This document shows, piece by piece, positions 13,910-33,398 of a DNA stretch of 33,654 nucleotides. This stretch comes from Chrysochromulina tobinii (Eukaryota): NCBI GenBank assembly GCA_001275005.1, contig JWZX01002254.1, positions 1-33,654 of the forward strand. Direction: 5' to 3'. The notes under the pieces were generated by a model that was not told the origin of the DNA, did no database searches, and saw only the letters and a program-made list of their open reading frames with translations. Position 1 is the first letter of the stretch. The number at the start of each line of letters is the position of its first letter. A program made the position numbers and the translations under genes.

Positions 13910-16654
13910 TCATCGCTTCTTCTTGCGCTTCGTCTCCTTGCCTTTGGCGCCCTTGTTGATGAAGATCTTCATCGCCCTCTTCTTGAGCGCCTCGCGATCG
14001 AGCACCTGGTTCAGCGGGTCATCGGCAGCTCCCTCCTCGTCGCCCTCCTCGCCCTCGTCGCCTTCCTCCTCGTCGTCCTCGTCCCCGGGCACCTTGAACT
14101 CCTTCGCAGACGCGCCCGCCGCCATCAGCAGCGGAGCGAGCGCCTCCGCCGACTCCATCCCATCGCGGGCCACCAGTCCCCGCCCCTTGAGAGCGGCGAC
14201 CAAGCTCATACGGTACTCCTCTCCCGTCATCACTGGCGAGGGTGCCCCAGGCGCCGTACTGGGCGAGAAGGGGGACCTCTCATCAGGCGCCGTACTGGGC
14301 GCAGGCGGCTCCGTCACCACCGCCAGTCCGCCCTCAGCCTCTTCACCGTCGGCGTCGCCCGGGACGGCGCCTTCGGCGTCGGCCGGTCTGGCACTGCCCT
14401 CTGCCGCTTCGGAACTGCCAGCCGCCTCGTCGGCGGCATTGGACAGCGCCGCCGCCGCCACCGCCGCCGCCACCGCCGCCACCGCCGCCTCCTCCTCCTC
14501 CTCCGCCGCCTCCGCCTCCGCCACCGTCGCCGTCGCCGTCGCGTTCGCCGGCAGCGCCGTCCTGTGCGCCGGCAGCGCCGCCTTCCCGATGAGCTCGCGG
14601 AGCAGCCCGAGGCTCTCCTCGAGCGCCTCGACGGTCAAGTGGTCCTGGCTCCTCTCCGCCTCCAGCGCGCCCGGGACGGCGCCGGGTCGGGCGCCGTGTC
14701 GAGCGCCCTTGAGGGCCATCTGCGCCGTCGTGGGCGTCGAGCCCTCCTTCGCGGGCGTCGTCCCGGGCGTGCCGAAGGCCTGCTGCACCGCGCTCTCGGC
14801 GGAGCGCTTCGCCTTCACCTTGCCTGGAGAGGGCGAGGCCTCGGGCAGCATCAGGTCAGCACGGGAGTCGAGCACGGCGGCGGTTTCGCCACTCAAATCT
14901 CCCGCCTTGAGCAGCCCCGTCGGAGGCGGGACTGAGGGCGGATGCAGGATCATGAGCCCCAGCGCGAGATCGCTGGCGTGCTGCTGCCGACCGCCCTTAC
15001 GCCAGACGCCCGTCCCTTTGCCCTCAGTGCCCGAGACGGCGCCCGCGAGCGGCGCGGCGCCGCGGAGCCCCTTGGCAGTGTGGAGCATGCGGCTGAGCTG
15101 CGCTACAGCGGCGTGGGCGTGCTGCATGATGGCCGCCGTGCGCTTCGCTCGTGAACGAGCCGCGCGCAGCTGGCGCTGCTGCTCGAGGCGAGACTCCTCG
15201 CCCTGGCCCTGTGGGGATTGGGCGCGCGCTGTGGTGAGCGCTTGCATGCAGGGCAGGTAACATCAGTGGCAATCAACGTACCTGGCCCTGTGGGGATTGG
15301 GGGCGCCCTGTGGGGATCGGCGGCGAGCCGGCGCGGTTATCGGACGTGTAACGGAGCTGCAGCAGCTTCTTCTTGCGCTCGTGAAACCTGAGGACGGGCG
15401 CCCGATACGGCGCGCGATCAGAGCTCCTCGGCGGCAATCAGAGGTCCATCAGCGCACTCCTTGGAGAGCAATCAGAAGCTCATCAGAGGTCCATCAGAGG
15501 TCCATCAGAGGTCCATCAGCGGTCCTTCAGAGGTCCATCAGAGGTCCATCAGCGTACTCCTTGGAGAGCAGCTCGATCGACCTGGTCGCCTGTCGATGGA
15601 GGTTGGCTAGCAGAGCGAAGGTCTCCTCCTGCGCCTTGAACTTCTCAACGATCAGGTCAGCTTCCGAGGTGCCCATCACCTGGCGCGAAGAAGGGCGCAC
15701 ACTTCTTATTAGTCGTCATCCAATGGGTACTCAGAGGTCATCCGAGGCACTCAGAGGTCATCCGAGGCACTCAGAGATCATCAGAGGTCATCAGAGGTCA
15801 TCCGTGGCACTCAGAAAGCACTCTGCGCGCCCTCAGCCACCCTCAGCGCACCTCCGCAATCAAGAGCCATCACGAGTCATCACGCGCCATCACGCGCCCT
15901 CACGCGCCCTCACGCGCCCTCAGCGCACCTCCGCTATCGAGTCGAAGATGAGCTGGAGCTTGGCGATGCGATCTCGCTCATCGTCGAGCGAGCCGACGGA
16001 TGTGAGGTGCTCGTTGCGAGAGAGCGCGTCCAGCCGCTCCGCCTCCAGAGCACGCAGCTTCTCCGCCGTGCGTGTCGCGTGATCCGCCGCGGCCTGCTGC
16101 CGGGCCTGCAGCTTGTCGCGCTTGGCCTGTAGCTTCTCCGCCTGCGCGGCGAGCTCGAACGAGAGTGTCTTATCCTGACGGAAGAGCTCTGCCTCGGCCG
16201 CGTTGCGCACGTCCGTCGCGTCCTTGAGCATCAGGTACAGCTTCTTCGCGTCCGCCTGCTTCGCGCTCGATTGGAAGTCGATCTCGTTCAGGTCGCGCCG
16301 GTAGGTCTTCTCCTCGCTGCGGATGCGCTCGATCATCAGCCCGTAGGTGCTATGGTCGTGGTTGGCCACATCAATCTCCGCCTCGACGTCCGCGAGCTCC
16401 GCCTCGAGCTCCGCGACCTCCGCCGCGTCCTCGTTGGCGCCAGCCGACAAGTCTGCCGACTTTGTGAAGCCGCTGGTACGCTCGACCATCTGGTGGAGCT
16501 TTTGCCGCAGCGTGATGCACTCGGCAGTGATCTCATCGTGCCGCTTGCGCAGCTTCGTCGCCTCCGCGTTCAGCGCCCTCAACGCCACCTCCGGCTCGGG
16601 CTCCGGCTTCAACTCCGTGCTCATGGCGCAGAAACCCGAACCGCCAGCGTCCAT
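13910..16654 (-). CDS. Coiled-coil protein resembling outer dynein arm docking complex subunits (ODAD1/ODAD3-like), 4 exons
   Basis: Predicted exons 16654 (or 16624)-15929, 15679-15558, 15387-15282, 15202-13910, phases consistent. The spliced product reads ...KLQLIFDSIAEVMGTSEADLIVEKFKAQEETFALL...KKKLLQLRYT, which resembles the docking-complex family as I recall it. Low-complexity acidic/basic C-terminus. Confidence 0.72.
15203..15281 (-). mobile_element. Family A introner-like intron (79 nt) with a perfect 20-bp duplication supplying the acceptor AG
   Basis: Sense sequence gtacgttgattgccactgatgttacctgccctgcatgcaagcgctcaccacagcgcgcg + cccaatccccacagggccag. The last 20 nt are identical to the upstream exon end (15282-15301). 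The core matches introns 31025-31098 and 32151-32229. Confidence 0.65.
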
Positions 16655-16788
16655 TCATGAACAGGGCTGTGAAAGCAGTTGTCTTGCAACGATGGGACTT
16701 AGGGAAAGGGTATGCGCGCGATCGCTCGCCTGCAACTGAAAGTAAGCAGACCCTCCGAAACCGTGGCAGGAGTCATCCGCACGCGTCA

Positions 16789-18255
16789 ATGAGCGCTGCG
16801 TTGCGTGCGTGCCAGAGAGTCGCGATGATCGATGCCACCGCGCCGGATGGCACGCGTCTGCACCTCTCCGCGCATTCAGTGAGCGGTTACAAGGGCGTGT
16901 TCGAGTCTGCGGGACGCTACCAGGCTCAAGTGCGCGTCGGTGGCAAACAAAAATACATTGGCATCTTTCCGACGAAGATGGAGGCCGCGATCGCCGTCGC
17001 GCGCGCCATAGGCGAGCCATCGGATGATCCCGATGCCGATCTTGCGACGGCGACGGACGTTCGCGACGGAGGCCATGGCGCGGCCACGGAGGACGCAGAC
17101 ATGGCCGAGGCCGAGGCAGACATGGCCGAGGCAGGGGACGCTGGAAGTGGGCCCCAGGTGGAGGTCACATCGACCAAGGTGGAGGTCACATCGACCAAGG
17201 TAGACGACGACGACGACGACCAGGGCGGCTCGTCCATCGGTCCGTACTCGGCCGAAGTGGTCGGGCAGATGCGCGGGCCGGAGCTACGCCGGGCGGTGCG
17301 CGGCGCCTTGACCGAGTCGGGCAAGACGCAGACTGCCTTCGCCATCGCGCTTGGTGTGAACCCCGCCTACCTGTCCCAGTGGCTGAACCAGAACTGGTAC
17401 GGGCACACGCATGGCAGGCCCAAGGTGGAGAGATTCATCGAGGGGAGGGTGCGCGCGTACCTTCGCGGCGGGGCCCTCGAGCCCGTGCATGCATGCATGG
17501 GGCCGCCGGCACCTGGCGGCGCCACCAGCAGTGCGCCCACCCAGCCCATGCATGCATGCAAACATGCACAAGGCGGCGCCACCAGCAGTGCGCCCGCCCA
17601 ACCCATGGAACGGCGGCGCCAGCCTAGGGCGACGTCGACGGCAGCGACGGGTGACGCGGCATTGCGCCAACGACTCTTTTCGAATCTGGTAGACGAGGTG
17701 CAAGGCGGGAGCTCGTCGACTGATGACCTCTGATGATCCTTGATGACACTTGATGACACTTGATTGCATCCCTCATCGGGTGCGAGGCGGGAGCTCGTCG
17801 ACTGATGACCTCTGATGATCCATGATTGCATCCCTCATCAGGTGCAAGGCAGGAGCTCGACAAGCACGAATGGTGGTGCGAGCGGCGGTGCGAGCGGCAG
17901 GGACGGCGGAGGAGGAGGAGGCCGCCATCATCGGGCCCTGAGCGCCGTCCTGAGCGTCGAACGGCCCGTCGCGTCGCCAGAGTCGATCGCGGCAGCGGAG
18001 CGAGCGAAACGGGACGCGCTCATGGAGGGCTTAGCCTTCGAACCAGACCGCAAGGGCCCCACTGGGTTGCTCGGGGTGCGGGCACGCGGTGCGGGCGACG
18101 CGCTGCGGTATACGGCCACGATCACCTGGATCACTGGACGGCTGAAGCGCAAGGCTCGTGTGCTGGGCACCTCCTTCCTGGCGGCCGAGGAGGCGGCGCT
18201 CTCCATCGCTCGTGCGCGGAAGGCCCTCAAGACGGGACAAATGCTGCCCTTTTGA
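16789..18255 (+). CDS. AP2-domain DNA-binding protein with a central Cro/C1-type HTH and a second AP2-like domain, 2 exons, ~440 aa
   Basis: Predicted exons 16789-17697 and 17842-18255. AP2: SGYKGVFESAGRYQAQVRVGGKQKYIGIFPTKMEAAIAVAR. HTH: TQTAFAIALGVNPAYLSQWLN. Second AP2-like domain: TGLLGVR...RYTATI...LGTSFLAAEEAALSIAR. Start codon uncertain (16657, 16789 or 16825). Confidence 0.82.
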
Positions 18256-18755
18256 ACATGGCCTTGGTACATTTCGTGCCTTCTGGTCCAATGGTCTATT
18301 ATGCAACCGAACACGAAGAGCACGTGTATTATGCCGATGTGCCCCGGGACCTTAAACGTGTATTAAACGTGAACATAGGAAGTCACATAGAAAGGGTTGA
18401 CTTTGAACCGACACATACCTTTGACGTGATACCTAGCACGGCGCGGCACGACGTCGGCCCAGGGGGGATTAGGCGTCGGGAGCCGCGCACACCGGCCTCC
18501 CTCCTCCCGAACGCGAAACGCGTGTGCCACTGTGCTCACAGTCGACTGTGCCTCTACCTCTATGGTTTGTACGTCTTTCGTCTTTGGTTTGAATCTTTCA
18601 TCGCTAATATCGTTGAACCAAAGACGTACATGAATTAATCGGAAACGATACAAAATGGTGTCGTGAAAAACACGATCGTTCGACGTATGTGCACCGGCCG
18701 ATTCTACGACAAACCTTCCCGCTTTTCGGCCTAGCTGCCGGGTACTTTCTGGAGT

Positions 18756-21744
18756 TCATGCTTCAAAATTCGGAGCGGGCTCGCTGATGCTCGGGAGACC
18801 CTTGAAAAGCACAGAACCGAGCACTGTTGCGCCAATTGTTCCGAAGCCGCCGGCAGACACGCCAGCACGCTCGCTGGGCTTGATCTTATTCTTCAAGGCT
18901 TCGAGCTCCGCGCTCAAGCTTCGCTCTCGTAGCTTCGCCTTGAACGAGGTGCCAGGTTTCATCAGCCCGGCCGATTGCGCGGCAGATGGTGCGGCAGGGG
19001 CTCCGCCCATCGAGAAGCTGTCCTCGCCGCTCGAACTGCACATATTTGCACCCGTATCGGCGTATGCTTGGTGCTTCTGCTCAGCCTTGATCTTCTCCTC
19101 TGCCTCGCGCTTGGCTCTCTCCTTGCTATCGCGCTCCTCCTTGCGCTTGTCTGTGCCCTTGCGCAGCCGCTCAGCGAACATCTCATTGGTCGCAAGCTCC
19201 CGTGGCCAGAAGACATCGCGTTGCGGCGATCGATCTTGCGGGGGTGAACCAGGCGAGCGCGCGGAGGTGCTCCCCCCACGCATTTGGCTCGGGCTGGAGC
19301 TTGTCGTCGAGCGGGCCGAGACCGTCGAGCGTGCTGTGCTGCTGCCATAATTGTAATTGGGCAGCTTGAGGTCACCGTGCTCGTTTATCATGAGGCGCGA
19401 GGAGGAGAGCCGCTTATTACTCGCAATGAGCCGACGCTCCGAGGCGAGCGCCGCTCGACTGGACATGATGATGCCTTCCGCGGGCGTCGCCGAGGCGTAA
19501 GGGTTGCCGAGGATCCCACCTTGGGGATGCTCCGAAGACGTAGACGAGGCTTGCGACTGTACGTGCACGTCGTCCGAGTCACTGCATTCGCCGTCGCTGT
19601 GCACTGGCAGGAGCATCTTGCCCGTCGGCGGCAAACTGGAGCGGGCTAGCTTGAGCTGCTTGACACGTTCGGGTCCGCAGCGGATGGGGACATTGATGCG
19701 TGGCAGCCAGTCGCCATGGCGTGACGTGGACTGGTAAGGCTGGAACTTGATGGACGTGGGCTCAACGCGCGGGTTCTGCTTCGGGAAGGCCTCGCACGAG
19801 GGCACCTCAATGACGAGCTGGAGGGAGTGGTCCAACTTGACCGCACCTAGCCGGTTCTTGTTCAGATCGAGCCCGATGACGGTCTTCTCGTTGAATTCAA
19901 GGTAGGACGTCGGGCCGGCGGACTCATGCCCGGGCAGTGCGGTGGCCTTGTGCATCTTCTCCTTGATCCGCTCGCTCAGCGGCTTGACCAGCGAGACCTG
20001 TCCGTCCTGGTCAGAGACCCGCACGAAGAAGTAGATGGTCGAGGGCAGTCGCTGGTAGGCGGGCAGCCGCTCGGGCGAGGGCGCCCGACCCGAGAAGCGC
20101 GCGTTCTGGAAGAAGATGTTGGGCTCACCCTCCTTTTGCTCCTCACCCTCGCCCTCCGAAAACGCGTCGTCGTCCTCCCCTGCAGAATAATCCCCAGGAT
20201 TGCCCACCGCGGTGTTGGGCCGCATGCCGAGGGGGCTGCTGCTCTGGCTGCTGCTACGCGCGCCGGGGGGTGTGCCGTCTCTTTTGCCCTCGGTCGCCGC
20301 CTTCGGCTCAACCACCTCTACGCGCTGATTTGCCTCGCGCACCTTGCGCCGATACGCCTCCATGGGGCTTTCGCCGGGTCGCGGAACAAAGATGGCCGAA
20401 GAGGCAGGTTCCGCGGCTGGGGTCGGCACGGCCAAGGCAGCTGGCGAGGGCTGCTGCTTGGGATTGTCCACAGACGGCATCGCATCAGGGGCGAACGTTT
20501 TCTTGATCGACGCGTCAGCCACGGTCTGTACAGTCGCGGGGGATGCAGCCAAAGGGGCTGCAGCCGCGGGGGGCGCTGCCGCGGGGATAGCAGCCGCTAG
20601 CGCCGCTGGCACAGCTGTGGTTTCTAGAGAAAGGACGGCTTCATATCGTTGAGCCGCAGAGATGACGGGGGGCCGAGTGGCCGCGGGGGACTCGGACCGC
20701 CACGGGGCAGCAGACGCAGGCGCAGGAGACCCGGCCGACTTCGGCAACTTGGCCTTGGCAGCATTACTGCTTGTTTTGGCCTCGGCAATTGCTTGCACGT
20801 AACCTGGCGGCAATGATTCATTTGCTGGTGCTGGCACGTGGGCAGCGATAGCAGGAGCCGCTGCAGCCGCGGCGGCCTTCGAGGCCTCCGCTGCCTTCCG
20901 CTTCTTAATGGCCTGCTCGAGCCAGCCTGACATGGGCTGATGGCCTTCTGGGATGATTCTATCATCTGCCAATTCAGGCCTTTCCATGAGGTACCTCTTC
21001 AAGTCTGCCTCTTCCTCCTTTAGCAACTTTTCGAGCGAAGACATATCCTCGAGTTTCTTCAAACCCTTCGAGATCATCTCTGGGCTCGCCGAGAGTGCAA
21101 ACTTGTCGAGCAGGCTCCTCAGCTCTCTGAGAGCTTCAACAACCCCTTTGCAGGCAATCATGGCCGCATCACATGCTGCCATGCACGCCTCGAGAGCCGC
21201 GTCGGACTCCACCTCTGCTTTCTGCCTGTGCTCCTCTTCGCGTGCTGCCAACTGCTCCTCTTTCTGCTTCGCATTCTCGAGCGCCTTTGCACTCGCCAAG
21301 GACGCATATTCGTCCATCCCGCGTCTCAGCGTGTTGAGAGCTGCTTCTATCCCCTCGTAAGTATCCTCTAACGTCTCACATGACGCCGTCACCGCCTCGA
21401 GTGCCGCGTTGGCCTCCTCCTGTTTCTTCAGCCTCTCGTTGTCTGCCTTCTGCTTCTCCTCTGCTTTCTTCTGCTTCTCCTCTTGCTGCCGCTCGAACGG
21501 CGACTTGGGCTTCTCCTTCTTCTTTTTCGAAGACGACGGCTGAGGCGGCCCGATGGCTTTCGGCGGTGGCGCGACCGCTGCGACCGCCTTGAAAACGGGC
21601 GCCGTCTTGGGAGCGGGCTTGTGCTTGGGCGGTGCGGCGGGCTCGCGCTCCGGCGCCGGCGCTGGAGCCGGTTCACTCGTGGGCGCGGTTGCAGGAGCAG
21701 GCTCAGGCGCGGGCGCAGGTGCTTGTGACTGCTCGAACTCCACA

Positions 21745-21800
<56 letters not shown>

Positions 21801-22862
21801 GAAGATAGCGTTGTACCAGCGCAGCATGGCACCAGTGGCGGCACCAGAGGCGGTGAGCGCGCCGTCTGTGACAGTGCTGGGGAGCTTCATCGCCGAGCGC
21901 CAAAGGAGCTCGTGAGGGAGTTCGCGCGAGAGCTCGTCGTAGAGCCAGCGCAAACGTGGCGGGCCCTCTCGCTGCAGGAGCCACCAGACAAGGCGACCGT
22001 GCAGGCAGAGGCACACGAGGGCGAGCAACATTATGACGGAACTGAAGCCTAAGAAGTAACTGTCTGCATGATTCGCGTACCACGTTTGCAGAATGGTGGG
22101 AGCGCGCGGTGGTGAAGGTGGCGGCCTTGGTGGCATCGGCGGCGGCCGCGGTGGTGACGGCGGGCTCGGCTGCGGCGGCGGCGGAGGTGGAGGCCTTGGT
22201 GGCATCGGCGGCTGCCGCGGTGGTGGCGGCGGGCTCGGCAGCGGCGGCTTTGGAGGTGGAAGCGGCGACGGCGGCGGCGGCGGCGGGTCTGGCGGTGGAT
22301 GTGGCAAAGGCGGCGGTGGTGGTGATGGAGGCGATGGAGGTGGCGGTGGGTCTGGCGGTGGATGCGGCGACGGCGGCGGCGGAGGGGAAGGTGGCGCTGG
22401 AGGTGAAGGCGGTGGCGATGATGGAGGTGGCGGAAGCGGTGGTGGTGGAGACGGAGATGGCCTCGGTGGTGGAGGTGACGGCTGCGGCGGCGGCGGCGGC
22501 GGAGGAGGAGGAGGTGACGGGGGTAGTGGCGGCGGTTCCGGGCTGGGCGGTGGCGGTGGAGCGAATGGCGGCGATGGAGGCGGCAGCGGCGTGCACGAGC
22601 AGCACTGGCTGGCGGGTATGATGGGTCCGTAGACGTAATGCTGAACAGCTTGAGTGAGCACGATGCCGATCAGCAAACCTCCGACGGCTCCGGACCCCGC
22701 TCCTGACCACCAGCTTGTGCTCTGCCGCTTCTGGCTGGCTTGCTCTTTCAGGTAGTCGGCCGGCTTGTCCAGGGTCAGCAGCGATTTCCCCTTGGACAGC
22801 CGCCGGTCACTGCGCTCCACGCTCGTCGGCAGTAGTGGTGAGGCGTCGGAGCGCGGCGCCAT
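18756..22862 (-). CDS. Large intronless proline-rich membrane protein (~1368 aa): two predicted TM helices flanking a poly-Pro/SPPP segment, then a coiled coil and a low-complexity tail
   Basis: Uninterrupted 4.1-kb ORF. Hydrophobic segments GAVGGLLIGIVLTQAV and YFLGFSSVIMLLALVCLCL flank ~160 aa of P/S repeats; an E/K-rich helical region follows. ATG 22862 is preferred over 23069. Confidence 0.8.
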
Positions 22863-23164
22863 CGCCCTTCTGGCTCGCGCTCCTGGGCCTGCTCGCGGGA
22901 GTGGACTGGTCGGGTGAGCCTCTCCTTCGCTGCGCTGAAAAAAAGAGTGTCGCACAAGCGGTTTCGCGTTTTTGGATGCGACGCGATGTGGCCTACCAAA
23001 ATTAGATGCCGAAGAATGTAAGGTGTCTCGCCGCCTCCTTTTCGCGCACACGCAGACTTGTAACTGCATTTGGCTCGTACTCGCACTCGATCGATCGATT
23101 CATTCCACCGCAGGAAACCTCCGTGGGAAAATCATGAGTACGAAGCGTGCGAGCGCAGCCCGCA

Positions 23165-24322: not shown

Positions 24323-25446
24323 GAGAGGGCACCGCGTGGGAGGTGGGACGGGTGCAAGCGGCTAGGAGCCATGCGGTGGACGACGAGAGGGGGACGCGGA
24401 GGGGCGAGCCCGGATCACAGTAACGTTCACACCGAATCCTCCGGGGGCGGGCCGCAAGATCTCGCTTGATCTCGCGGCGCACCGCGCGTGGGGTAGCATA
24501 AAATAGACATCGTGTTTGTGGAGGGGAGAGCCCGGGGGGTGCATGCGTGCATGCGGGTCGAGGGGGCCGGGGGGCAGCGGCCACAGCGCACAATGGTACG
24601 CGGCGCGCCCGGCCGGCGGTACGACCCGTGCGTCGCGCGCGGCGTCGGTCGGCGTTGCGGGTCTCGGCGGGTCGGTCGCTCCGACCTCCGTGCGTGCCGA
24701 CTCGGTCGGGGTACGGGTAGACGCGCCGTACCGCGGTGGCGTCGCGCGTCGGCTGACGCGCTGACCGCGCGTCAAGCATGGCGTCAAGACGTCAACCTCG
24801 AACCTGTTGCGCGCGGGGGCGCGGGCCCCGCATTGCGGCATGGTCGCCATGGGATGGGCGCCATGGGATGAGCGTCCAGAACAGACACCATATCGAGCCA
24901 CACACAGCAAACAGGCGCTATTCAACTGTTAACTCTCTGGACACCCCTCCCGCTGTCCTCCCCCGCCCATTTGCGCCTTTGCGCCTTTGGCGCGGAGGCA
25001 CGAGCGAACGGCACATCCTCAACGCCTGCTTCACGCAGGCACGGGTCATGGGCTCGGGCTCGGATCCACGCGCACGGCACACGCACATGATCGGATGGGG
25101 GCAATGGATGAGATGACACACAGCACAAGTCGATCAGGAGGGCACAAAGTTTCAGTACGTACTCGCCGCCCCGTGAAGAGGCCGAGAAGAGGCGCTCAAC
25201 ATGACGCATCGACCCTCCGCATCTGGCTGCCATGGTCGTATGTAGCCAGCGTCCCCCCCTCGACAGTCCCCCCTCGACAGTCAGAAACCCACACGCCCGT
25301 TGGGCCACCCACGCATCACTGGCTGTGAACACCCACGCATCACTGGCTGTGAACATCCACGCGTCGCCGACCACATCGCCCGCGTGCGTTGTGGTCTGCG
25401 AATTCAGCCCTGCATGCCAAACACCCCTCTCCGCCGCTGGCTCGGG

Positions 25447-25507
25447 AGAGAATAATGACCCCCCCCCGGGGGGGCAAAGAGAATAATGATCCCCCCCCGG
25501 GGCAAAG
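25447..25507. repeat. Two direct copies of AGAGAATAATGA-Cn-Gn-CAAAG containing self-complementary C/G runs
   Basis: agagaataatgacccccccccgggggggcaa is followed by agagaataatgatccccccccggggcaaag. Confidence 0.8.
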
Positions 25508-25622
25508 TCCACAGAAGGGACAGGATGATGATGACGGGAGTCACTGATGTCTCATCATGTCGACCCCTTGCCATACCTCAAGTCGACGGGGATCTGCGCC
25601 GTGCTGGGGCACCGTGGGGTGC

Positions 25623-26408
25623 TCACATCTCGTCCTCCTCGTCGCCCCACACGCAATAGAGCGCCGGCTTGGGCAGGCCACGCTCATGCGCCGAGACGAG
25701 GTCGATGCGGCGCAGCCACTCCAAGTGACGCTTCCTGCAGTGCTTCCTCACGGCGTCGGTCGACGCGTAGAGCTTTTTGCAGCCGGGGAACCGGCAGCGG
25801 AAGCGGCTCGTCCCGGGAGGCGGTGCGCCTGCGCGTTGGGACAGGCGCGCGCGCGCTCGGTCAGGCGAGGGAATCGCCAAAGGGACATGTATGCGAACTT
25901 GGGGGATCAGTGGCCGACTCCCAGTAGGAATGGCGCGGCTGGGTGAGGGCGGCCGCGCACCGTCCTTGGGATTTCGCTGCCGCTTGGGCGAGCTTTGTCC
26001 GGGCGTATCGTAGTCGAGCGGCCGGAAGGTCTTTGGCGACCCGTCGCTCGGCGAGGAGTACCCTACACCGCTCAGATGTGGCCATCGCTTCGCATCGTGG
26101 TCGCCCCAGCGTCCCATCCCCCCAAGGTCGGCGCCCGTCGGCGCCGCATCGTCCTCCTCGCGAGAGTCTTCGTCAGGCGATGAGACCTCCACGCACGCGG
26201 TGTGCAGACCCAGCAGCGCGGCGACCGCATTCTGCTCGTACGCAGACTCCACGGCAGACTGAGGGCTGGAGTCCTCGTGCCTGACGTCCATCGCCGCGCC
26301 AGCAGCCGGTTCCGAGAACGAGCTAGCTGGCGACGGCAGGCCGGCGCCAACGAGCTCGAGATCCGGGGCTTTGGCTGCCGACAGATCGATGGTCGTCACC
26401 ATCGACAT
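25623..26408 (-). CDS. Single C2H2 zinc-finger protein
   Basis: C-terminal FRCRFPGCKKLYASTDAVRKHCRKRH (C-x4-C-x12-H-x4-H) with a disordered N-terminus. The ORF-track start at 26438 is GTG, so ATG 26408 or 26402 is preferred. Confidence 0.82.
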   Translation of the reverse strand: MSMVTTIDLSAAKAPDLELVGAGLPSPASSFSEPAAGAAMDVRHEDSSPQSAVESAYEQNAVAALLGLHTACVEVSSPDEDSREEDDAAPTGADLGGMGRWGDHDAKRWPHLSGVGYSSPSDGSPKTFRPLDYDTPGQSSPKRQRNPKDGARPPSPSRAIPTGSRPLIPQVRIHVPLAIPSPDRARARLSQRAGAPPPGTSRFRCRFPGCKKLYASTDAVRKHCRKRHLEWLRRIDLVSAHERGLPKPALYCVWGDEEDEM

Positions 26409-26805
26409 GAACTGGAAGGACTGATCTTGCCGCCTCACGTGGATCCGGCCGATAAGTTTTATCAGAGGGGCGTTTCTTTCGCGCGTTCGATACGGGAATC
26501 GGAAGCGCCGTCGGCAAAAAACTTTTGGGTCGTGCCGCGGAACACGACAGTCGAGAGTCTGTCGAAGCCAACCGCCGCATCGACGCTCCGCATCGCGCTA
26601 GGCGCGGCGCCGCAGCAGCACGGCTGCCGCTACATGCATTGGCCACATGAGACATGTACCAGCCTCCAGCGTGCCTCCCGGTCTGCGAAACTGCGAGACA
26701 TCACCCTTGCGCTTTGAACCCCAGCGGGTGTGTACTTACTTGTACGGAGTCGGTCGAGAGTCTGTATTCACACCGAATTTTGTTGAGTTGCCGAACATCT
26801 CCTTG

Positions 26806-27264
26806 ATGCGGCGTACCCCCTCGGTCCTGATACCAATTTGCCGCCACCGCGGTTTACATGCACGAGTCAGCGGTAGCAGCTCCTGCATCTTTGAGCACCT
26901 TGGGTTGCCGGCCGACACGCCGCGCAGCGAGGTGCGACGGCGATACCTGGAGGCGGCGCTGCGCACGCACCCAGACCACTGCTTGGATGCGGACGCAGCC
27001 ACACGCATGGCGGTGCTGCAGACCGCGTGGGAGAGCTATCGCCGTTCTGACGCTCGTCGAAGGCGCACCACAAGCCAAACGGGCGGCGCGCCGGCTGAGG
27101 GCTTCGCCACCTTTGGCGTTGGCTGCTCATTTGCAGACTCAGAGCAGGAGAGTGCGGAGCGTGCGGAAATCATAACAATGGCTTCGCGAGGCATGATGAA
27201 TCCACGACCACTGAGTGAATCCAAATGTGTGACCGCAGATACGGCTGCCGCGAGGCACGTTTGA
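26806..27264 (+). CDS. Small J-domain (DnaJ/Hsp40 type III) protein with a possible mitochondrial presequence
   Basis: FEHLGLPADTPRSEVRRRYLEAALRTHPD...AATRMAVLQTAWE contains the HPD motif. The N-terminus is Arg-rich and acid-free. Confidence 0.8.
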   Translation: MRRTPSVLIPICRHRGLHARVSGSSSCIFEHLGLPADTPRSEVRRRYLEAALRTHPDHCLDADAATRMAVLQTAWESYRRSDARRRRTTSQTGGAPAEGFATFGVGCSFADSEQESAERAEIITMASRGMMNPRPLSESKCVTADTAAARHV

Positions 27265-27626
27265 GAAAGCGCACGGGCGACGGGAAGTCCGCGGCAGCGG
27301 CTCGGTCGCGCCGCGCGCGCGCAGCTGCGTTTCGCGTTCTCGTGTTCGAGGTTCTGGCTCCGGTCTCATCACCCGCATAGGGTGGGTGAGAGGGTGGGTG
27401 GGTTTGCCGCCGAAGGCCACGAAATGGTATGGTAATTTTTCTTGAAGCCTTTAACCACAATCGAAATCTCGGGCATCGGCTGCAAGCCGGCCCGGCCGGT
27501 ACCGCGGTCCAGCGGCTAGCGACGCCGACGGCAAACCAACTCTGCGAGCCGCCGCGGGGACCACGCCGCGCCTCTGAGAGAGTCTTCTCGCCTGAACCTG
27601 TGACTGTGAGTCTCCGCGATAGTCGC

Positions 27627-27789
27627 GCGAGCACGCGGATCGGCGATGTGCAGTACCTGTGGGGAAATGGCGCCGTGGTGAGCACATGCATGCTGAGCGA
27701 GCACGCGGATCGGCGATGTGCAGTACCTGTGGGGAGAGGGCGCCGTGGTGAGCACATGCATGCTGAGCGAGCACGCGGATCGGCGATGT
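27627..27789 (-). repeat. 70-bp tandem repeat (2.3 copies) containing the family A intron core and an acceptor-like end
   Basis: Units start at 27627, 27697 and 27767. The minus strand reads gcatgcatgtgctcaccacggcgcc...tccccacag|gtactgcacatcgccgatccgcgtgctcgc. Confidence 0.85.
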
Positions 27790-28246
27790 CATCTTGACAG
27801 CGACGCCACCGGCTCCTCCGCGAGGATTTTGCCGCTTGATTTGTATTGGCATTAGAGGCATCCATGGTGACGGATCATGATGACGAAGCTCATTCGTGGC
27901 ATTAGTAGCATCCATGGTGCCGGCGGCAGCGGCGGCGGGGGTGACGGTGGAGGCGGTGACCAGGGCGGTGGCAGTGACGGCTCAGGACCGAGCGGAGCCA
28001 GTGGTGCAGCGTGGAGGCGGTGGTGGAGGCGGTGGTGCAGCGTGGAGGCGGTGCGGGTGGAATCCGGACGGGTCGAGGCAACATGGGCGTAGGCGGTGGT
28101 GGCGAGTGCGACGAAGCGCCTCGAGATCTCACGTCGATGTTAGTGTATGTGTATTCTGTGTATGTGGCCGGGGGCGCGCGGCCTCGCTCGCGTGCGTGCG
28201 CCAATGTGCGTTTGCACTCCAGTACCAGGCGCCAATGCCAACTAGA

Positions 28247-28918
28247 TCAACTCGGACTGAGGCCACAGTAGTGGTGCTGGCCATCGATGCTGATGAGGAC
28301 GCCATTCAGACGAAGTGCGGCGCCCAGCTCTTCCTGTGGTAGAGCCCGGTCCTTGGCGAGTCGGTCTATGAGGGCGGAGTAGGCAGGGCCTTGGGACTCC
28401 AAGCCCTCGTCGCCCTGCAGCTCCTCGTGCAGCTCAGCCAGAACCACTTGTCCTATAGCGCCACGCCACCAGCAGCGCTTGTGGCAGCCGCCAAACTCAA
28501 AGCAGGAGTTCCCGCCAGTCTCTAGGCGTTTGCACTCCCAGTACTCTGTGATCCAACGATGCAGCAACTCGGCTGCTGCATCACGAGAAGCAAACGGTCC
28601 GGCGTCCAATGGGTGCGCACGGGCACCGCACGCTGCTGCAAGACGAATGATGACATCCTCGGGCGCCCTGATGAGCGTGGCAGTCGGTGTGCTCGCTACT
28701 ATTTCAACCTCCCGTGCTGCTTTGAGAGATGAGAGAAACGCTTCTGGAAGCGCTGCCGTCTCAAAAGCAGCGTCAGCCCTCTTGGCAGAGCCTGCGGCAG
28801 ATGTCGGCGCATACTGTGATCCATACGGGAGGAACTTCGACCTATAGCCGTGAGCGAGCATAAGAAACTGGCAGAAGAGTGTGCCGCTGAGCCTCGAACG
28901 GCGTAATATCGACGCCAT
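28247..28918 (-). CDS. Hypothetical protein, 223 aa
   Basis: ATG-initiated ORF with protein-like composition, divergent from the next gene. No recognisable domain. Confidence 0.45.
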   Translation of the reverse strand: MASILRRSRLSGTLFCQFLMLAHGYRSKFLPYGSQYAPTSAAGSAKRADAAFETAALPEAFLSSLKAAREVEIVASTPTATLIRAPEDVIIRLAAACGARAHPLDAGPFASRDAAAELLHRWITEYWECKRLETGGNSCFEFGGCHKRCWWRGAIGQVVLAELHEELQGDEGLESQGPAYSALIDRLAKDRALPQEELGAALRLNGVLISIDGQHHYCGLSPS

Positions 28919-29174
28919 TCAGCTCTAGGCGAAACCCAGGGCGGACGGAAGATAGCGGAAAACACACCACGAGATGCGTTTTTTGCCTCCGGGATACGGT
29001 GTGGAAACAGACCTCCTCCCAGTGCATAAATGAAAGATTCGGGCTCATTCGTCAATTCGAAAAACAAGTCATGAAACTTATTGGCTCGATTTGGACTCAC
29101 CTGTGTGGAAGCGTCCAGACTATCGCGGTGTCGCCCCGTGCTACAGGCTGGGCGCTTGGCCACGGACTGGCGAG

Positions 29175-32100
29175 ATGTTCAAAGAATTCGACAAGGACGG
29201 CGACGGGAATGTCACCGTTGGCGAGGTTTTTCAGGGCGTATTTACCAAGATATCTGACCTTTTTACCAAGGAGACGAGGGAAGAGTACAAGAAGCGCATA
29301 TTTCAGCGAGCGGCGAGTGCGCTCCGGCACTCGCAGGAGGTCAGGGCGTGGAGCACGTGGGTCGACTCTATGCGCCAGCGGGCTGAAAACATGCGCGTGA
29401 TACGGAAGTGCGTGCTCGGCTTCATGTTTGCCAAGCAGCGAGCGTGCATTGAGTGCTGGCACGACGAGGCGATGGCCCGTGGCGAGGCGAAGTTGCGCGC
29501 TCAGAAAGCCTTGGCGCGGTTTAAGCATAACAACGAGAGCCGCGCCATCAATCACTGGGTCTTCATCTACAGGGAGGACAAGGCCGCGCGCCAGCGGCTC
29601 AAGAGCCTGATGTCACGCGTCTCCCCCGAAGGGCAGGCGAAGTTGAAGGTGCTTGATATCTTGCGTGCGATGCACGCCAAAGCGCTGCTGTTCCGCAAGG
29701 CTGCGATGGCGCTCTTGAACAGCCAGCTGTTCCGAGCGTACAATGCGTGGCACGAGCTGGCGGAGGACAACAAGCGAACCGCGGAGAAGATTCGGCGGGT
29801 ACTCGTGCGCCTCGACCCGGTGTGCATGCTGATGGCCTCCTGATTACTCGTGCGCCTCGACCCGGTGTGCATGCTGATGACCTCCTGATGACCTCTGATG
29901 ACCTTTGATGACCTCTGATGACTCGTGCGCCTCGACCCGGTGTGCATGCTGATGACCTCCTGATGACCTCTGATGACCTTTGATGACCTCTGAGTACTCG
30001 TGCGCCTCGACCCGGTGTGCATGCTGATGGCCTCCTGATGGCCTTTGTGTGACCTCCGAGTGACCTCCGATGGCCTCTGAGTGACCTCCGATGGCCTCTG
30101 ACGGCCTCTGGTGACCTCTGACGGCCTCTTGATGACCTCTGAGTGCCCTCTGATGGCCTTTGATGGCCTCTGATGGCCTCTGAGTGCCCTCTGAGTGACC
30201 CTTGATGACACCTGATGACCTCTGGTGGCCTCTGGTGGCCTCTGGTGGCCTCTGGTGGCCTCTGATGGCCTCTGATGGCCTCCCACACCAGGTGATGCGG
30301 AGCATGCTCAAGGTGATCGAGCGGCTCAGCATGCACGCGCAGCAAGTACACCAGTTGGAGTTCGCCGCGCGCGCCCTGCTGAACGCGGCGCCGAAGCGGG
30401 CGTTCCTCACATGGGCGGGTAGGCGAGAGCAAGTGATCGCACAGCGGCGGGCGGTGGTTTGGCTCGCCGTGCAACGCGGCCATCGCGTGGGCACCTTGCA
30501 AGAGATGTTTGAGGAGATCCGCGAGATTTCGGCCGTTGATGACTTGCTGCAGGTGAGTGCTAATGACCTCTGATGACCTCTGATGACCTCTGATGACCTC
30601 TGATGACCTCTGATGACCTCTGATGACCTCTGATGACCTCTGATGACCTCTGATGACCTCTGATGACTTCGGCCGTTGACGACTTGCTGCAGATGACAGA
30701 CGAGCTCGGGATGACGCCGCTCCTCTGGGCGTCCAAACGGGGATTCGCTGACATTGTCGAGGTGCGCGCGCCGAGGTGGGGCCTTGAGATATGGGGTTTG
30801 CAGGCGCTTTACCCTCTCCCACCCTCTCCCCACATCTCCCCACATCTCCCCACATCTCCCCACATCTCCCCACATCTCCCCACATCTCCCCTGTCCTCAG
30901 GTCCTCTTGACCTTCGCCGGCGACGTGCAGGCCGTCATCAGCGCTCGCGATGCTGAGGGCTCCACGCCGCTGCACCACGCCGCCCGCCGCCACCACAACG
31001 ACATCGTCGCCATGCTGATCGAAGGTACGTTGATTGCATGCGGATGGCCTGCCTTGCATGCAAGTGCTCACCACAGCGCGGCGCCCTGCTGATCGAAGCC
31101 GGCGTCAACGTGCACCAACCCAACGACGATCAGTCGACCGCGCTGCACTGGGCGGCTCGCAAGAACAATGCGCTTGCCATCCGCATGCTGATTGCAGCTG
31201 GCGCGGACCCGCATTGCAAGAACAAGTGGGGGGCGACGGCTCTCGAGAATGCGCAGTTTGGGGACAATCTGGAGGCGGTCTGTCTGCTCGCGAGGGACGA
31301 GGCCACTCGCAAGCAGGCCGAGGAGGAGCTCCAGCTCCAGCGCAAGCTTCGGTGCGATTGATTGAGATTGAGATTGAGATTGAGATTGAGATTGAGATTG
31401 AGATTAAGTAGCAGGCCGATGAAGAGCTCCAGCGCCAGCGCCAGCTTCGGTGCGTCAACTGAGGGCCACCGAGTGCCACGGATGGCCACTGATGGCCACT
31501 GATGACCGCGGGTGATCACATGTAATTGCCGCTGATGAGCACTGATGAGCGCTGATGAGCGCTGAAGAGCAACCCATTGCGCCCCTCATCAGGCCGACAA
31601 GCTCGGAGCTCTGATGACCTCTGATGACCTCTGACGACGCGATTGATTGCCTCCCTCATCAGACCGACAAGCTCGGAGCTCTGATGACCTCTGATGACCT
31701 CTGACGACGCGATTGATTGCCTCCCTCATCAGGCCGACAAGCTCGGAGCTGGCCGCCAGGCTGAGTGAGGCCGCGGGCTACGCCATCGAGCAGCGTGAGA
31801 AGAATCGGATGCGCATTCGAGGGCTGCACGACGCACGGGCCGCCATGGATGCCGCGGCCCAGGAGCAGGCGCGTTGATTGCTCACTGATGGCTCACTGAT
31901 TGCTATTGATTGCTATTGATTGCTCTTGATTGCGGCCCAGGAGCAGGCGCGTTGATTGCTCACTGATGGCTCACTGATTGCTATTGATTGCTATTGATTG
32001 CGGCCCAGGAGCAGGCGCGTTGATTGCTCACTGATGGCTCACTGATTGCTATTGATTGCTATTGATTGCGGCCCAGGAGCAGGCGCGTTGATTGCTCACT

Positions 32101-32880
32101 GATGGCTCACTGATTGCTATTGATTGCTATTGATTGCGGCCCAGGAGCAGGCGCGTTGATTGCTCACTGATGACCACCTGCCTTGCATGCAAGTGCTCAC
32201 CTACAGCGCGTTCGGCTCTTGTGGAGCAGGCTCGAGCTCAGAAGCGACAGCGTCTCGCCTTCAGTGCCCTCGCAAAGGCGGTGCAGGCATCCTCGAAGGC
32301 TCCCGCCAGGGCTTCGGCTGCTGCCGCCAAGGGTTGGGGCGTCAGCGTCAGCCGTCCCGGGCGTATCGGCGGCGACAGCAGCAGCATTTGGCTCGCGTGC
32401 ACAGCTGAAGAGTTGTCCACACTCGAGCGCTGCGTGGCCGAAGCGGCTGCGGCCGTGGAGGAGGCAGGTGATTTTGCCATGCTCATGGTCCAAGAGCGCC
32501 TAGCTGAGGGACAGGCGCGATTGGAGCAGTTACGTTCGCTCGCCGCCTCCGCCGCCGCCGCCGGCGCCGGCACGCCGTATCCCTCCGAGGACACGTTTGA
32601 CGCCTCGGGGGGGGCGGGCACGCCCACGCCCACCTCCGAGGAGTTTGCCTCGCCGACGAAGCACGCTGCCTCGCCTTTTGAAAGCGAGTCGACGACTCCT
32701 TCCCCATCATCCCGCTCGCCCACCTCCCATCGCATGTCCCACCGGCACCAAGGTGGCGAAGGCACCAAGGAATCCCCCATGGAGCGCCAGCTGCGCAAGG
32801 CGAAGCTCGCGGGCAAGAAGAGGAGCGGCTCGCCACGTAAGTCCACCAGCAAGTCCACCAGCCCCAGCAAGTCGCGCTGA
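29175..32880 (+). CDS. EF-hand + Sfi1-like (centrin-binding-type) Trp repeats + ankyrin repeat protein, 7 exons, ~712 aa
   Basis: Predicted exons 29175-29819, 30292-30552, 30693-30761, 30901-31024, 31099-31351, 31733-31868, 32230-32880. The last intron is GC-AG and phases are consistent. EF loop DKDGDGNVTVGE; RAxxxW motifs, the first three Trp 33 aa apart; ankyrins GMTPLLWAS, GSTPLHHAA, QSTALHWAA, GATALENA. The 5' end is uncertain. Confidence 0.8.
29801..30029 (+). repeat. Four copies of the exon1-end/5' splice site (actcgtgcgcctcgacccg|gtgtgcatgctgatg) separated by TGATGACCTC units
   Basis: Copies start at 29801 (the real donor), 29846, 29921 and 29996. Confidence 0.9.
30561..30667 (+). repeat. 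Perfect intronic (TGATGACCTC)n array
   Basis: Nine exact units at 30571-30660, plus one variant and one partial flanking unit. Confidence 0.97.
30831..30890 (+). repeat. Intronic (CACATCTCCC)6 array
   Basis: Six exact 10-bp units directly before the acceptor ctgtcctcag (30900). Confidence 0.95.
31025..31098 (+). mobile_element. Family A introner-like intron (74 nt) with a 17-bp duplication (1 mismatch) supplying the acceptor AG
   Basis: gtacgttgattgcatgcggatggcctgccttgcatgcaagtgctcaccacagcgcgg + cgccctgctgatcgaag, versus the exon end cgccatgctgatcgaag. Removing it restores the ankyrin sequence MLIEAGVNVH. Confidence 0.65.
31361..31402 (+). repeat. (ATTGAG)7 intronic microsatellite
   Basis: Seven exact units shortly after the donor at 31352. 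Confidence 0.93.
31573..31750 (+). repeat. Three tandem acceptor cassettes, 70-bp period
   Basis: ccctcatcag|(g/a)ccgacaagctcggagct, with AGs ending at 31592, 31662 and 31732. Confidence 0.9.
31854..32229 (+). repeat. Five tandem copies of the exon-end + GC donor unit (68-78 bp period), ending in a family A core
   Basis: gcggcccaggagcag|gcgcgttgattgctcactgatg starts at 31854, 31932, 32000, 32068 and 32136. The last copy continues cctgccttgcatgcaagtgctcacctacagcgcg...ggagcag. Confidence 0.9.
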
Positions 32881-33398
32881 GCTGAGCGCGGCGGAAGCCG
32901 ACGCGGCGCACGGAGCGCTGCAGCACGGAGTGGAAGGAGAGAGGAAGAGGACAAGCGCCCTCAGTCAGTACACTCATGTGCTGAGAGCTGAGAGCTGCAT
33001 ACAAAAATGGGTGGGGATTCGATTCTGAGGTCGTCTGATTTCTGTTCAAGCCGGGTAGCAGGCTTTGTTGCATGACGCATGACCGCGCATGGACCCCTCT
33101 AGCTCATGACAAGCATGACCGCGCGCGCACGGCAGCAGGTGAGACCGAGGTCGGAGGCGGCACGGCAGAGAGCGAAGCGGGAGCGTGTTCGGGAGGCGTA
33201 TCGTACGGTCGATGGTATACGCCCTACTTTTTACCGAGGCGAGAGGGGTCCACTGGCGACTGTGCACTGGCGTCGCGTTGAGGACGTCAGTTGTGTCACA
33301 CCGCGGACACGGGTCACGGGACACCGCACGCGTCACGAGGTCGGTGGAGGGGATTCACTTCCCAGTTCCCTGCTCGGTTCCGGGATAGAACATTGAAC

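What the first reader, a model, noticed from the sequence alone, without database searches (positions are those of the whole stretch)
15203..32229. Family A: a ~55-nt sequence shared by introns of unrelated genes on both strands
Seen: introns 15281-15203 (minus), 31025-31098 (plus) and the last unit 32151-32229 (plus) share G(T/C)RCGTTGATTGC-N-GATG-N-CCTGCCYTGCATGCAAGYGCTCACC(T)ACAGCGCG. They are 74-79 nt long and end in a copy of their own upstream exon end. The core contains the palindrome TGCATGCA and a branch-point-like GCTCAC. In the first two introns the module's own CAG is out of phase, so the duplicated exon AG 22-26 nt further on must be used. Inference: similarity far beyond a splice consensus at non-homologous sites is the operational signature of an introner family.
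Basis: partly seen in the sequence, partly recalled or inferred. Interest (0 to 1): 0.85.

Follow-up and report, generated by a model that had tools for sequence, protein, structure and literature searches.

The report
Mobile mini-introns with duplicated exon ends
A ~55-base sequence shared by three introns in this alga's genes belongs to a family found at about a hundred unrelated gene sites, each copy bracketed by a repeat of the gene's own sequence, which likely marks a small element that creates a new intron when it is copied into a gene.

Summary
The three copies lie at the stated coordinates, share 49-51 of 58-60 aligned bases, and have unrelated flanks. Each ends in a copy of its upstream exon end (20, 12-13 and 7-9 nt).

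RNA contigs show the second intron (31025-31098) spliced exactly as predicted. They also show that the third copy is only the 3' end of one 361-nt GC..AG intron (31869-32229). The first intron (15203-15281) has no RNA test.

Most single copies carry a site-specific duplication of 10-43 nt. Removing one repeat period restores codon phase. Flanking protein domains lie on the element's sense strand at 13 loci and on the antisense strand at none.

Copies come in two half-forms. One carries the 5' splice site plus a branch-like site. The other carries the branch-like site plus the 3' splice site. The duplicated exon supplies the missing splice site.

The introner reading is supported. There are no terminal inverted repeats and the duplication length varies, so a classical fixed-stagger transposon is unlikely; how copies spread is inferred. 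An earlier report of this scan (e1-2577349) described the same footprint elsewhere in this genome. I rate it a new variant of a known kind.

The parts
15203..15281 (-). c1: predicted 79-nt GT..AG intron. Module = 15225-15281, core = 15233-15257. Its last 20 nt (15203-15222) copy the upstream exon end.
   Evidence: The frame stays open and codon phase is continuous across the junction. The same intron is read through in ORFs of related strains (P0001, P0002) and is present in locus L036. No RNA junction was seen.
15282..15301 (-). Upstream exon end that is duplicated at the 3' end of intron c1.
   Evidence: 21-nt direct repeat, 100% identical, spacing 79 (15281-15301 and 15202-15222).
31025..31098 (+). 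c2: 74-nt GT..AG intron, phase 1, splitting an ankyrin repeat. Module = 31025-31080, core = 31048-31072. Its end (31079-31098) copies the exon end 31005-31024.
   Evidence: The RNA-contig joint 31012->31087 skips 74 nt and reads GT..AG at cut +12 in X13 and X14. Contigs of X11 and X12 carry the upstream exon letters as a loose end at 31082. Direct repeat. Ank profile positions 2-22 end at the exon end.
31869..32229 (+). c3: the intron actually removed, 361 nt, GC..AG. It consists of about four 68-nt units (copy of the exon end plus an expanded 5' arm) followed by the last unit 32151-32229, which holds the module (32151-32210; core 32177-32201).
   Evidence: Joint 31861->32223 skips 361 nt, with 9 letters fitting either side, in 4 of 4 RNA runs. 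TRF array 31886-32172, period 68, 4.2 copies. Sequence.
31862..31868 (+). Exon end GGAGCAG, repeated at 32223-32229 (the last 7 nt of the intron) and before each array unit.
27627..27789 (-). Diverged relative of the family: core variant plus CACGGCGCC..CCCCACAG followed by GTACTG.., in 2.3 tandem copies of 70 nt.
   Evidence: TRF. nhmmer hits at 27662-27693 and 27732-27763 with E = 2e-7 and 4.5e-7 against the B-form model. Sequence.

Best explanation
Family A is a multi-copy family of roughly 45-57-nt sequences that sit in sense orientation inside short spliceosomal introns of unrelated genes, each flanked by a duplication of the local exon sequence; it likely spreads by being copied from existing introns into broken or nicked exon DNA, so that the duplicated exon end supplies the splice site the element lacks.

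Shown by the data:
- The element has a constant core, TGCCYTGCATGCAAGYGCTCAC, followed by CACRGCGC.
- Form A adds a 5' arm, GTACGTTGATTGCCACTGATGACC. It carries the donor, and the duplicated exon end (..AG) provides the acceptor.
- Form B has no arm but adds a pyrimidine tract ending in CACAG. It carries the acceptor, and the duplicate (GT..) provides the donor.
- In a third group the AG|GT lies inside the duplicate.
- Removing exactly one repeat period (element plus one duplicate copy) restores the uninterrupted coding sequence. RNA contigs show this for c2 and for the c3 array.

Inferred:
- The A of CTCAC in the core is the branch point. It lies a median of 29 nt from the acceptor used. The element's own CACAG is only 6 nt away from it, which would explain why that AG is skipped.
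- Spread does not use a transposase with a fixed stagger. The most likely route is microhomology-assisted copying of an existing intron into a staggered break (break repair or template switching). This would account for duplications of 10-43 nt, shared bases at the junctions, pieces of donor flank carried along, and tandem arrays.
- I put about 0.8 on 'introner-type family that makes working introns' and about 0.4 on this particular copying route.
For: - Identity and chance.
- RNA splicing of c2 and c3: (first hint).
The same pattern gave 0 matches in viral contigs and 0 in prokaryotic genome contigs.
- Site-specific duplication: score >=12 in 55 of 77 single-copy sites, against 18 of 231 chimeras with the right flank swapped. 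Of 62 duplicate pairs, 37 are identical.
- Splice geometry: GT..AG exactly one period apart in 42 of 62 on the sense strand, 6 of 62 on the antisense strand, and 0-8 of 62 at periods shifted by 1-3 nt.
- Classes: A 29, B 9, C 11, none 13.
- Codon phase: continuous in 36 of 49 after removing one period, against 19 of 49 left unspliced. The strand call is sense in 33 of 36, and the rule was right in 36 of 36 windows of Pfam-supported ORFs.
- Host genes: 13 of 96 sense flank ORFs hit 13 different Pfam families (10 above gathering score); 0 of 97 antisense ORFs hit any; none is a reverse transcriptase or transposase.
- Branch-like A to acceptor distance.
- No shared terminal inverted repeat.
- Junction overlaps of >=3 nt: 5 of 27 at the right junction (0.73 expected) and 7 of 18 at the left junction of B-like copies (0.49 expected).
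- Shared 3' tails at unrelated loci whose exon ends match the tail (c3, L009, L016, L026/L047, L049; L002 and L023).
- Tandem arrays: 14 sites.
Against: - No empty site or presence/absence polymorphism was seen, so mobility is inferred from footprints only.
- No whole genome is held. Copy number per genome and the share of copies outside genes are therefore unknown.
- The metagenome loci may mix several related species. My merging of duplicate sites is heuristic.
- c1 has no RNA evidence.
- 15 of 77 single copies have no duplication above chance, and 13 of 62 lack a GY..AG pair one period apart.
- When GC donors are allowed, the shifted-period control reaches 28 of 62 against 49 of 62, so that version of the test is weak.
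- The plain open-frame test does not tell the strands apart: 51 sense against 47 antisense of 61.
- The microhomology counts assume where the element ends, and one of the 7 left-junction cases (L015) is an array artefact.
- No enzyme or autonomous partner was identified.
- The branch point is not mapped.
Confidence: 0.75

Rival explanations
1. Retroposition of intron-derived RNA. An excised or partly trimmed intron RNA would be reverse-transcribed at a nicked exon (target-primed, LINE-like). That would give target duplications of variable length, annealing of the RNA 3' end to a similar target, and truncated copies.
For: Duplications vary from 10 to 43 nt. Microhomology occurs where the element's 3' end meets the start of the duplicate (in c1, 10 of 12 bases). 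Whole introns including their old 3' tail recur at unrelated sites whose exon ends match that tail (L002 and L023; the GAGGAGCAG group). Form A starts exactly at the first intron base. Form B looks like a 5'-truncated copy with 5'-junction microhomology.
Against: There is no poly(A) or other 3' tail, and no reverse transcriptase or endonuclease was found in the window ORFs or in 193 flank ORFs. Form A is truncated at its 3' end, not its 5' end, which sense-strand target-primed copying does not predict. B-form copies that share one 3' arm (L107, L108) do not carry the donor's 5' duplicate, so the unit copied is not the whole intron.
Confidence: 0.25
2. A classical non-autonomous DNA transposon (MITE-type introner), moved by a transposase that makes a target-site duplication, as described for Aureococcus, Micromonas and dinoflagellate introners.
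For: Flanking direct repeats are present. One splice site is carried by the element and the other is taken from the duplication, as in published introner families (passages read).
Against: The copies share no terminal inverted repeats. Duplication length runs from 10 to 43 nt within one family, instead of the fixed 3, 4, 5 or 8 nt reported. The element's boundaries are ragged on one side. Bases are shared at the junctions.
Confidence: 0.08
3. Not mobile: an old splicing cassette (branch site plus splice-site context) kept similar by selection or by gene conversion among pre-existing introns.
For: The core contains a branch-like CTCAC. The arms carry a donor or a pyrimidine tract with an acceptor. 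Some copies are shared between diverged relatives, for example L081 and L116, so some are old.
Against: Selection or conversion does not create a copy of the adjacent exon inside each intron. The duplications are site-specific (55 of 77 against 18 of 231 in the control) and 37 of 62 pairs are still identical. The host genes are unrelated. There is no Rfam family and no unusual fold (z between -0.17 and 0.63).
Confidence: 0.05

Closest known systems
Haptophyte introner families catalogued by Gozashti et al. 2022 (PMC9860276; bioRxiv 10.1101/2022.06.06.494994). One example is Chrysochromulina sp. family 5 (Fig. 2C legend). Supplementary Table 6 lists families of 68-113 nt (a few of 183-202 nt) in Phaeocystis, Prymnesium, Chrysochromulina and Haptolina; I read passages and 30 table rows.
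   Same: These are short (about 70-nt) introns repeated at non-homologous sites, with no terminal inverted repeats. The element carries the 5' splice site and takes the 3' site from a duplicated target.
   Different: The duplication reported there is 4 bp, and most haptophyte rows have TSD and TIR marked '?'. Here the duplication is 10-43 nt and variable, and a second half-form carries the 3' site instead.
Emiliania huxleyi fam11 and fam24 in Gozashti et al. 2025 (PMC12130899, supplementary file sd07; rows read).
   Same: These are introns of about 66-70 nt of class 'Unknown'. One family carries the 5' site and co-opts the 3' site, with a mix of GT and GC donors. The other co-opts the 5' site and carries the 3' site and is annotated '10bp terminal direct repeats'. 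That matches forms A and B here.
   Different: Only 5-6 copies per family are listed, and no sequence was available to compare. Long variable duplications, junction microhomology and arrays are not described.
Introner-like elements of Symbiodinium and Polarella (bioRxiv 10.1101/2020.10.14.339549, passages read), and Aureococcus and Micromonas introners as summarised.
   Same: One or both splice sites are recruited from the target duplication, and the position of the splice sites relative to the duplication is flexible.
   Different: Those classes have a fixed duplication length (3, 4, 5 or 8 nt) and mostly terminal inverted repeats, which points to transposases.
New introns of Daphnia pulex formed at staggered double-strand breaks (PMC4202315, abstract and passages read).
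   Same: [quoted passage not shown] The length is variable, and internal repeats arise from further events.
   Different: The Daphnia repeats are 4-12 bp and the inserted material is not one repeated family. Here the filler is the same core at about a hundred sites.
Earlier report of this scan, e1-2577349 (same genome, another piece).
   Same: A 66-nt intron is bracketed by a 15-nt copy of the gene's own sequence that supplies the GT donor, with more than a hundred related introns in lake metagenomes. That is the footprint of form B here.
   Different: It is a different locus, and I could not compare its sequence.

Membership tests
Introner (operational sense: near-identical introns at non-homologous sites) | High sequence similarity between introns of unrelated genes at non-homologous positions | tested here: met
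   Modules share 49-51 of 58-60 columns while their flanks are unrelated. There are 106 distinct sites. 13 different Pfam families occur in the flanks.
Introner (operational sense: near-identical introns at non-homologous sites) | The copies are removed as spliceosomal introns | tested here: met
   RNA-contig joints support c2 (4 of 4 runs, counting loose ends) and the c3 array (4 of 4 runs). c1 and the metagenome copies rest on geometry and codon phase only.
Introner (operational sense: near-identical introns at non-homologous sites) | Enriched in genes and in sense orientation | tested here: met
   Pfam hits on sense against antisense flank ORFs: 13 of 96 against 0 of 97. The codon-phase call is sense in 33 of 36. 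The share of copies outside genes could not be measured.
Introner (operational sense: near-identical introns at non-homologous sites) | Recent mobility: presence/absence between strains, with empty sites | not testable with these tools
Only unit-number differences between assemblies were seen (L026 has two units, L047 has one).
MITE-type (DNA transposon) introner | Terminal inverted repeats | tested here: not met
   c1 and c2 share no inverted repeat at the element ends. Only the internal palindrome is found.
MITE-type (DNA transposon) introner | Target-site duplication of fixed length | tested here: not met
   Duplicate length is 10-43 nt (median 21.5 over 62 sites; two longer values are array artefacts).
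SINE- or LINE-dependent retroposon | Variable target duplication, 5' truncation, microhomology at junctions | tested here: inconclusive
   Variable duplication and junction overlap are present. However, form A is truncated at its 3' side and form B at its 5' side.
SINE- or LINE-dependent retroposon | A 3' tail (poly(A) or simple repeat) and a reverse-transcriptase source | tested here: not met
   No tail is present at either end. No reverse-transcriptase domain was found in 18 window ORFs or 193 flank ORFs. The rest of the genome was not searchable.
Fungal introner-like elements (recalled: stable predicted RNA structure, no flanking duplication) | Unusually stable secondary structure and absence of target duplication | tested here: not met
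   Fold z-scores run from -0.17 to 0.63. Duplications are present. The defining features are recalled plus the summary.
Known structured RNA (Rfam) | Match to a curated covariance model | tested here: not met
   0 matches at gathering score in the whole window.

The most novel reading that the evidence does not exclude
These mini-introns spread without any transposase of their own. Existing introns, or their RNA, serve as templates that are copied into exon breaks through a few bases of homology. The copying duplicates 10-43 nt of exon. Because the element is a half-intron (a branch site plus one splice site), the duplicated exon completes it into a working intron. This would join the two rival models of intron gain, introners and break repair, into a single process.
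Probability: 0.3. Interest if true: 0.85.

Novelty: new variant of a known kind. Interest (0 to 1): 0.6.

Why it matters
How new spliceosomal introns arise is a long-standing question. The two best-supported routes have been treated as separate: introner transposons with fixed short target duplications, and one-off insertions at staggered breaks.

This family has the repeated, sense-oriented, gene-restricted character of introners. It also has the long, variable exon duplications and junction homology of break repair. It comes as two complementary half-introns that each borrow the missing splice site from the duplicated exon.

If confirmed on a complete genome, it gives a concrete, sequence-defined system for asking which enzymes copy introns. 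The system has about a hundred sites, many with still-identical duplicates. It would also explain why published surveys class haptophyte introners as 'Unknown'.

There is a practical point as well. Prokaryote-style gene calling on these contigs reads straight through such introns (P0001 and P0002).

Tried and rejected
No per-genome census or search for an autonomous copy was therefore possible.
- First read laying over 20 kb with a DNA run: the tables were swamped by repeat-derived joints. It only gave the hint that RNA contigs begin at 32223.
- c1 splicing: not shown in either read-laying run. A part without cover is no evidence either way.
- Homology search with the c1 downstream exon: 7 hits, all unannotated metagenome ORFs, with no spliced gene model. 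The protein atlas gave no usable hit.
- Rfam gave no match, and RNA folding of the three units and the core was no better than shuffles. I rejected the structured-RNA idea.
- The open-frame test for strand does not discriminate in this GC-rich DNA (51 against 47 of 61). I replaced it with codon-position GC and Pfam.
- The GY..AG test with GC donors has a weak shifted-period control (up to 28 of 62). I replaced it with the GT-only and antisense controls.
- Copies without a splice pair have a period divisible by 3 in 8 of 13, against 19 of 49 for the others. This is not significant (Fisher p = 0.21), so the idea of in-frame unspliced insertions stays a hint.
- The core pattern has 0 hits in viral contigs and 0 in prokaryote genomes.
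- Neither motif string appears in any paper of the library. The core string does not occur in the supplementary files searched: the one Gozashti 2022 spreadsheet and 12 of the 14 Gozashti 2025 files (files 13 and 14 were not searched).
- Our-findings look-up by sequence returned nothing.
Full report
**What is in the window.**
- Measured from the first intron base to CACAGCGCG, the three modules are 57, 56 and 60 nt. They share 49 of 58, 51 of 60 and 49 of 60 aligned positions.
- The 60 nt on either side show only chance-level similarity.
- Each unit ends in a copy of the exon sequence that precedes it. The copies are 21 nt at 100% identity with spacing 79 for c1, 20 nt at 90% with spacing 74 for c2, and 9 nt for the last unit of c3.
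- The ends of the element are not inverted repeats of each other. The only palindrome is internal: CTTGCATGCAAG.
- The window has no Rfam match. The units fold no better than shuffled sequence.

**RNA evidence.** No genome is held for this window, but public runs hold the stretch as DNA and as RNA contigs.
- I laid four RNA runs on 30700-33300.
- For c2, two runs join 31012 to 31087. The joint skips 74 nt, 12 letters fit either side, and it reads GT..AG at cut +12. This is the intron 31025-31098.
- The other two runs have contigs that run from 31082 and carry the upstream exon letters as a loose end, which is the same spliced form.
- For c3, all four runs join 31861 to 32223, skipping 361 nt with 9 letters fitting either side. 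At +7 the intron is 31869-32229 with a GC donor.
The unit 32151-32229 is only the tail of a longer intron made of about four 68-nt units, each consisting of a copy of the exon end plus an expanded 5' arm.
- No contig uses an internal donor, although contigs can miss rare forms.
- One contig links all these exons, so c2 and c3 lie in one ankyrin-repeat gene. The upstream exon of c2 ends at position 22 of the 33-position Ank profile.
- c1 lies in another gene on the other strand. Its frame stays open and its codon phase is continuous across the predicted junction. The intron is also present in related strains (L036; ORFs that read through it). I have no RNA junction for c1.

- These hold 148 instances. 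After merging the same site from different assemblies and merging tandem copies, they reduce to 106 distinct sites including the window's.
- The same pattern has no match in 2.9 million viral contigs or in the prokaryote genome collection.
- nhmmer models built from the copies also find a diverged pair in the window at 27662-27763 on the minus strand, in a 70-nt tandem.

**Flank duplication.** I analysed 109 representative sites with enough flank. Of these, 32 have a second core-like motif within 130 nt (arrays), which leaves 77 single copies.
- In the 77, the best direct repeat bracketing the core scores at least 12 in 55. The same score is reached in 18 of 231 chimeras whose right flank came from another locus.
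- In the 62 sites scoring at least 10, the repeat period is 52-123 nt (median 77.5). The duplicate is 10-43 nt (median 21.5), apart from two array artefacts. In 37 pairs the two copies are identical.
- A GT and an AG lie exactly one period apart in 42 of 62 on the sense strand. The figure is 6 of 62 on the antisense strand and 0-8 of 62 at periods shifted by 1-3 nt.
- With GC donors allowed the count is 49 of 62, but that version has a weak control, with up to 28 of 62 at shifted periods.
- 15 of 77 sites have no duplication above chance. Several of these are complete introns with both arms, and others look like old copies.

**Two half-elements.**
- In 29 sites the duplicate ends in AG and the element begins GTACGTTGATTGCCACTGATGACC, followed by the core. 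The 5' end is fixed, and the 3' end is ragged, lying 2-27 nt after the core.
- In 9 sites the duplicate begins GT and the element begins at or within 5 nt of the core in 6 of them (11-33 nt of other sequence precede the core in the other 3). It ends in CACGGCGC, a pyrimidine tract and CACAG.
- In 11 sites the AG|GT lies inside the duplicate.
- 13 sites have no such pair.
- The A of CTCAC in the core lies a median of 29 nt (interquartile range 26-35) from the acceptor used. The element's own CACAG ends only 6 nt after it. The branch point is inferred, not mapped.

**Orientation and host genes.**
- After one period is removed, the codon position with the highest GC content is continuous across the junction in 36 of the 49 spliceable sites. 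It is continuous in 19 of 49 if nothing is removed.
- The strand call from codon-position GC is sense in 33 of those 36. This rule called 36 of 36 test windows of Pfam-supported ORFs correctly.
- As an independent test, I took the longest flank ORF on each strand of each locus. 13 of 96 sense ORFs hit Pfam at E <= 1e-4, with 13 different families (kinase, HECT, helicase, ABC transporter, AAA_2 and others). Ten of these are above the gathering score. None of 97 antisense ORFs hit anything.
- No hit is a reverse transcriptase or transposase.
- A plain open-frame test did not separate the strands.

**How copies arise (inferred).** The duplication length varies fourfold within one family and there are no terminal inverted repeats. 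That argues against a transposase with a fixed stagger, which is what published introner classes show: 3, 4, 5 or 8 nt, and of constant length in Aureococcus. Further observations bear on the mechanism:
- The junctions share bases more often than chance. The duplicate starts inside the conserved CACRGCGC block by at least 3 nt in 5 of 27 arm-bearing copies (0.73 expected). It runs at least 3 nt into the core in 7 of 18 B-like copies (0.49 expected; one of the 7 is an array artefact).
- In c1, the target carried 10 of 12 bases of the element's 3' end.
- Some copies carry what looks like a previous site's duplicate. The tail GTTCGGCTCTCGAGGAGCAG recurs in c3, L009, L016, L026/L047 and L049, all at exon ends reading ..GAGGAGCAG or similar.
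- L002 and L023 are unrelated loci that share the whole 74-nt intron, and both of their exon ends match its last 10 nt.
- 14 sites hold tandem arrays of duplicate-plus-element units, and assemblies differ in unit number (L026 against L047).

Together these fit copying from existing introns into a staggered break with homology-assisted joins, through break repair or template switching. Target-primed reverse transcription of intron RNA fits almost as well. I cannot separate the two with these data.

**Comparison with what is known.**
- Introners are established in many lineages. Short haptophyte families are already catalogued, mostly with unknown mechanism.
- The nearest descriptions are a ~70-nt Chrysochromulina family with a 4-bp duplication that carries its donor, and two small E. 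huxleyi families, one of them annotated '10bp terminal direct repeats'.
- A copy of the adjacent exon end at the far end of a new intron is the footprint reported for staggered-break intron gains in Daphnia. There it is 4-12 bp with non-repeated filler.
- In what I read (abstracts, the passages found, and the table rows named) I found no description of an introner family with long, variable duplications, complementary half-elements and junction homology. Neither motif string occurs in any paper of the library. The core string does not occur in the supplementary files searched: the one Gozashti 2022 spreadsheet and 12 of the 14 Gozashti 2025 files (files 13 and 14 were not searched).
- Figures, the large PDF appendix of the 2022 paper and the bioRxiv supplements could not be seen, and they may bear on this.
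- An earlier report of this scan (e1-2577349) found the B-type footprint in another piece of the same genome.

**Caveats.**
- Mobility is inferred from footprints. No empty site was seen.
- The number of units in the c3 array rests on the window's assembly.

Noticed in passing
window 29874-30282, 30563-30667, 15481-15552, 7372-7453, 6321-6445 and many others: Many putative introns are filled with tandem 10-11-nt units such as CTGATGACCT or TGATTGC.. (94 TRF rows). The 5' arm of family A looks like two such units. Weak nhmmer hits of the arm fall on the strand of the local gene.
   Followed up: partly
window 31537-31750 (+), 3323-3482 (-), 17741-17859 (+): A second intron family ends in GATTGCNTCCCTCATCAG. 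It shows the same architecture: an 18-nt copy of the downstream exon start and tandem units of 62-78 nt. RNA contigs splice to about 31732/31733.
   Followed up: partly
window 30760-30900 (+) and 25828-25959: Two further introns are supported by RNA contigs. One is the joint 30759->30899, which skips 139 nt, reads GT..AG, and has only 4 letters fitting either side. The other is a 132-nt gap in X12 record 20. Neither carries the family A core.
   Followed up: no
window 31048-31134 and 32202: RNA and DNA contigs from other copies pile up on the module. RNA depth is 103-214 against 8-27 for the gene. In DNA run X1, contigs lacking the T at 32202 have depth about 1850 against about 100-130 for single-copy contigs. 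That means at least about 15 genomic copies share that exact stretch, and unspliced copies or DNA are present in the RNA libraries.
   Followed up: partly
window 8752-10272 (+): An uninterrupted 507-residue frame holds two adenylate-kinase domains in tandem (Pfam ADK, 2 stretches, E = 1.3e-72).
   Followed up: no
loci L025, L076, L053, L099, L030, L084 and others: 13 of 62 copies have a flank duplication but no GY..AG pair one period apart. In 8 of these the period is divisible by 3, and the strand calls are mixed (2 sense, 4 antisense). They may be unspliced in-frame insertions, but the excess is not significant (p = 0.21).
   Followed up: partly
locus L034 (and L113): Three tandem units interrupt an AAA_2 (Clp/Hsp104-type) ATPase domain at a native GGTACGT. 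This matches the element's own first bases, an example of target-element homology at the 5' junction.
   Followed up: partly
window 31663: All five runs laid (four RNA, one DNA) read G where the window has A, a strain difference inside an intron repeat.
   Followed up: no
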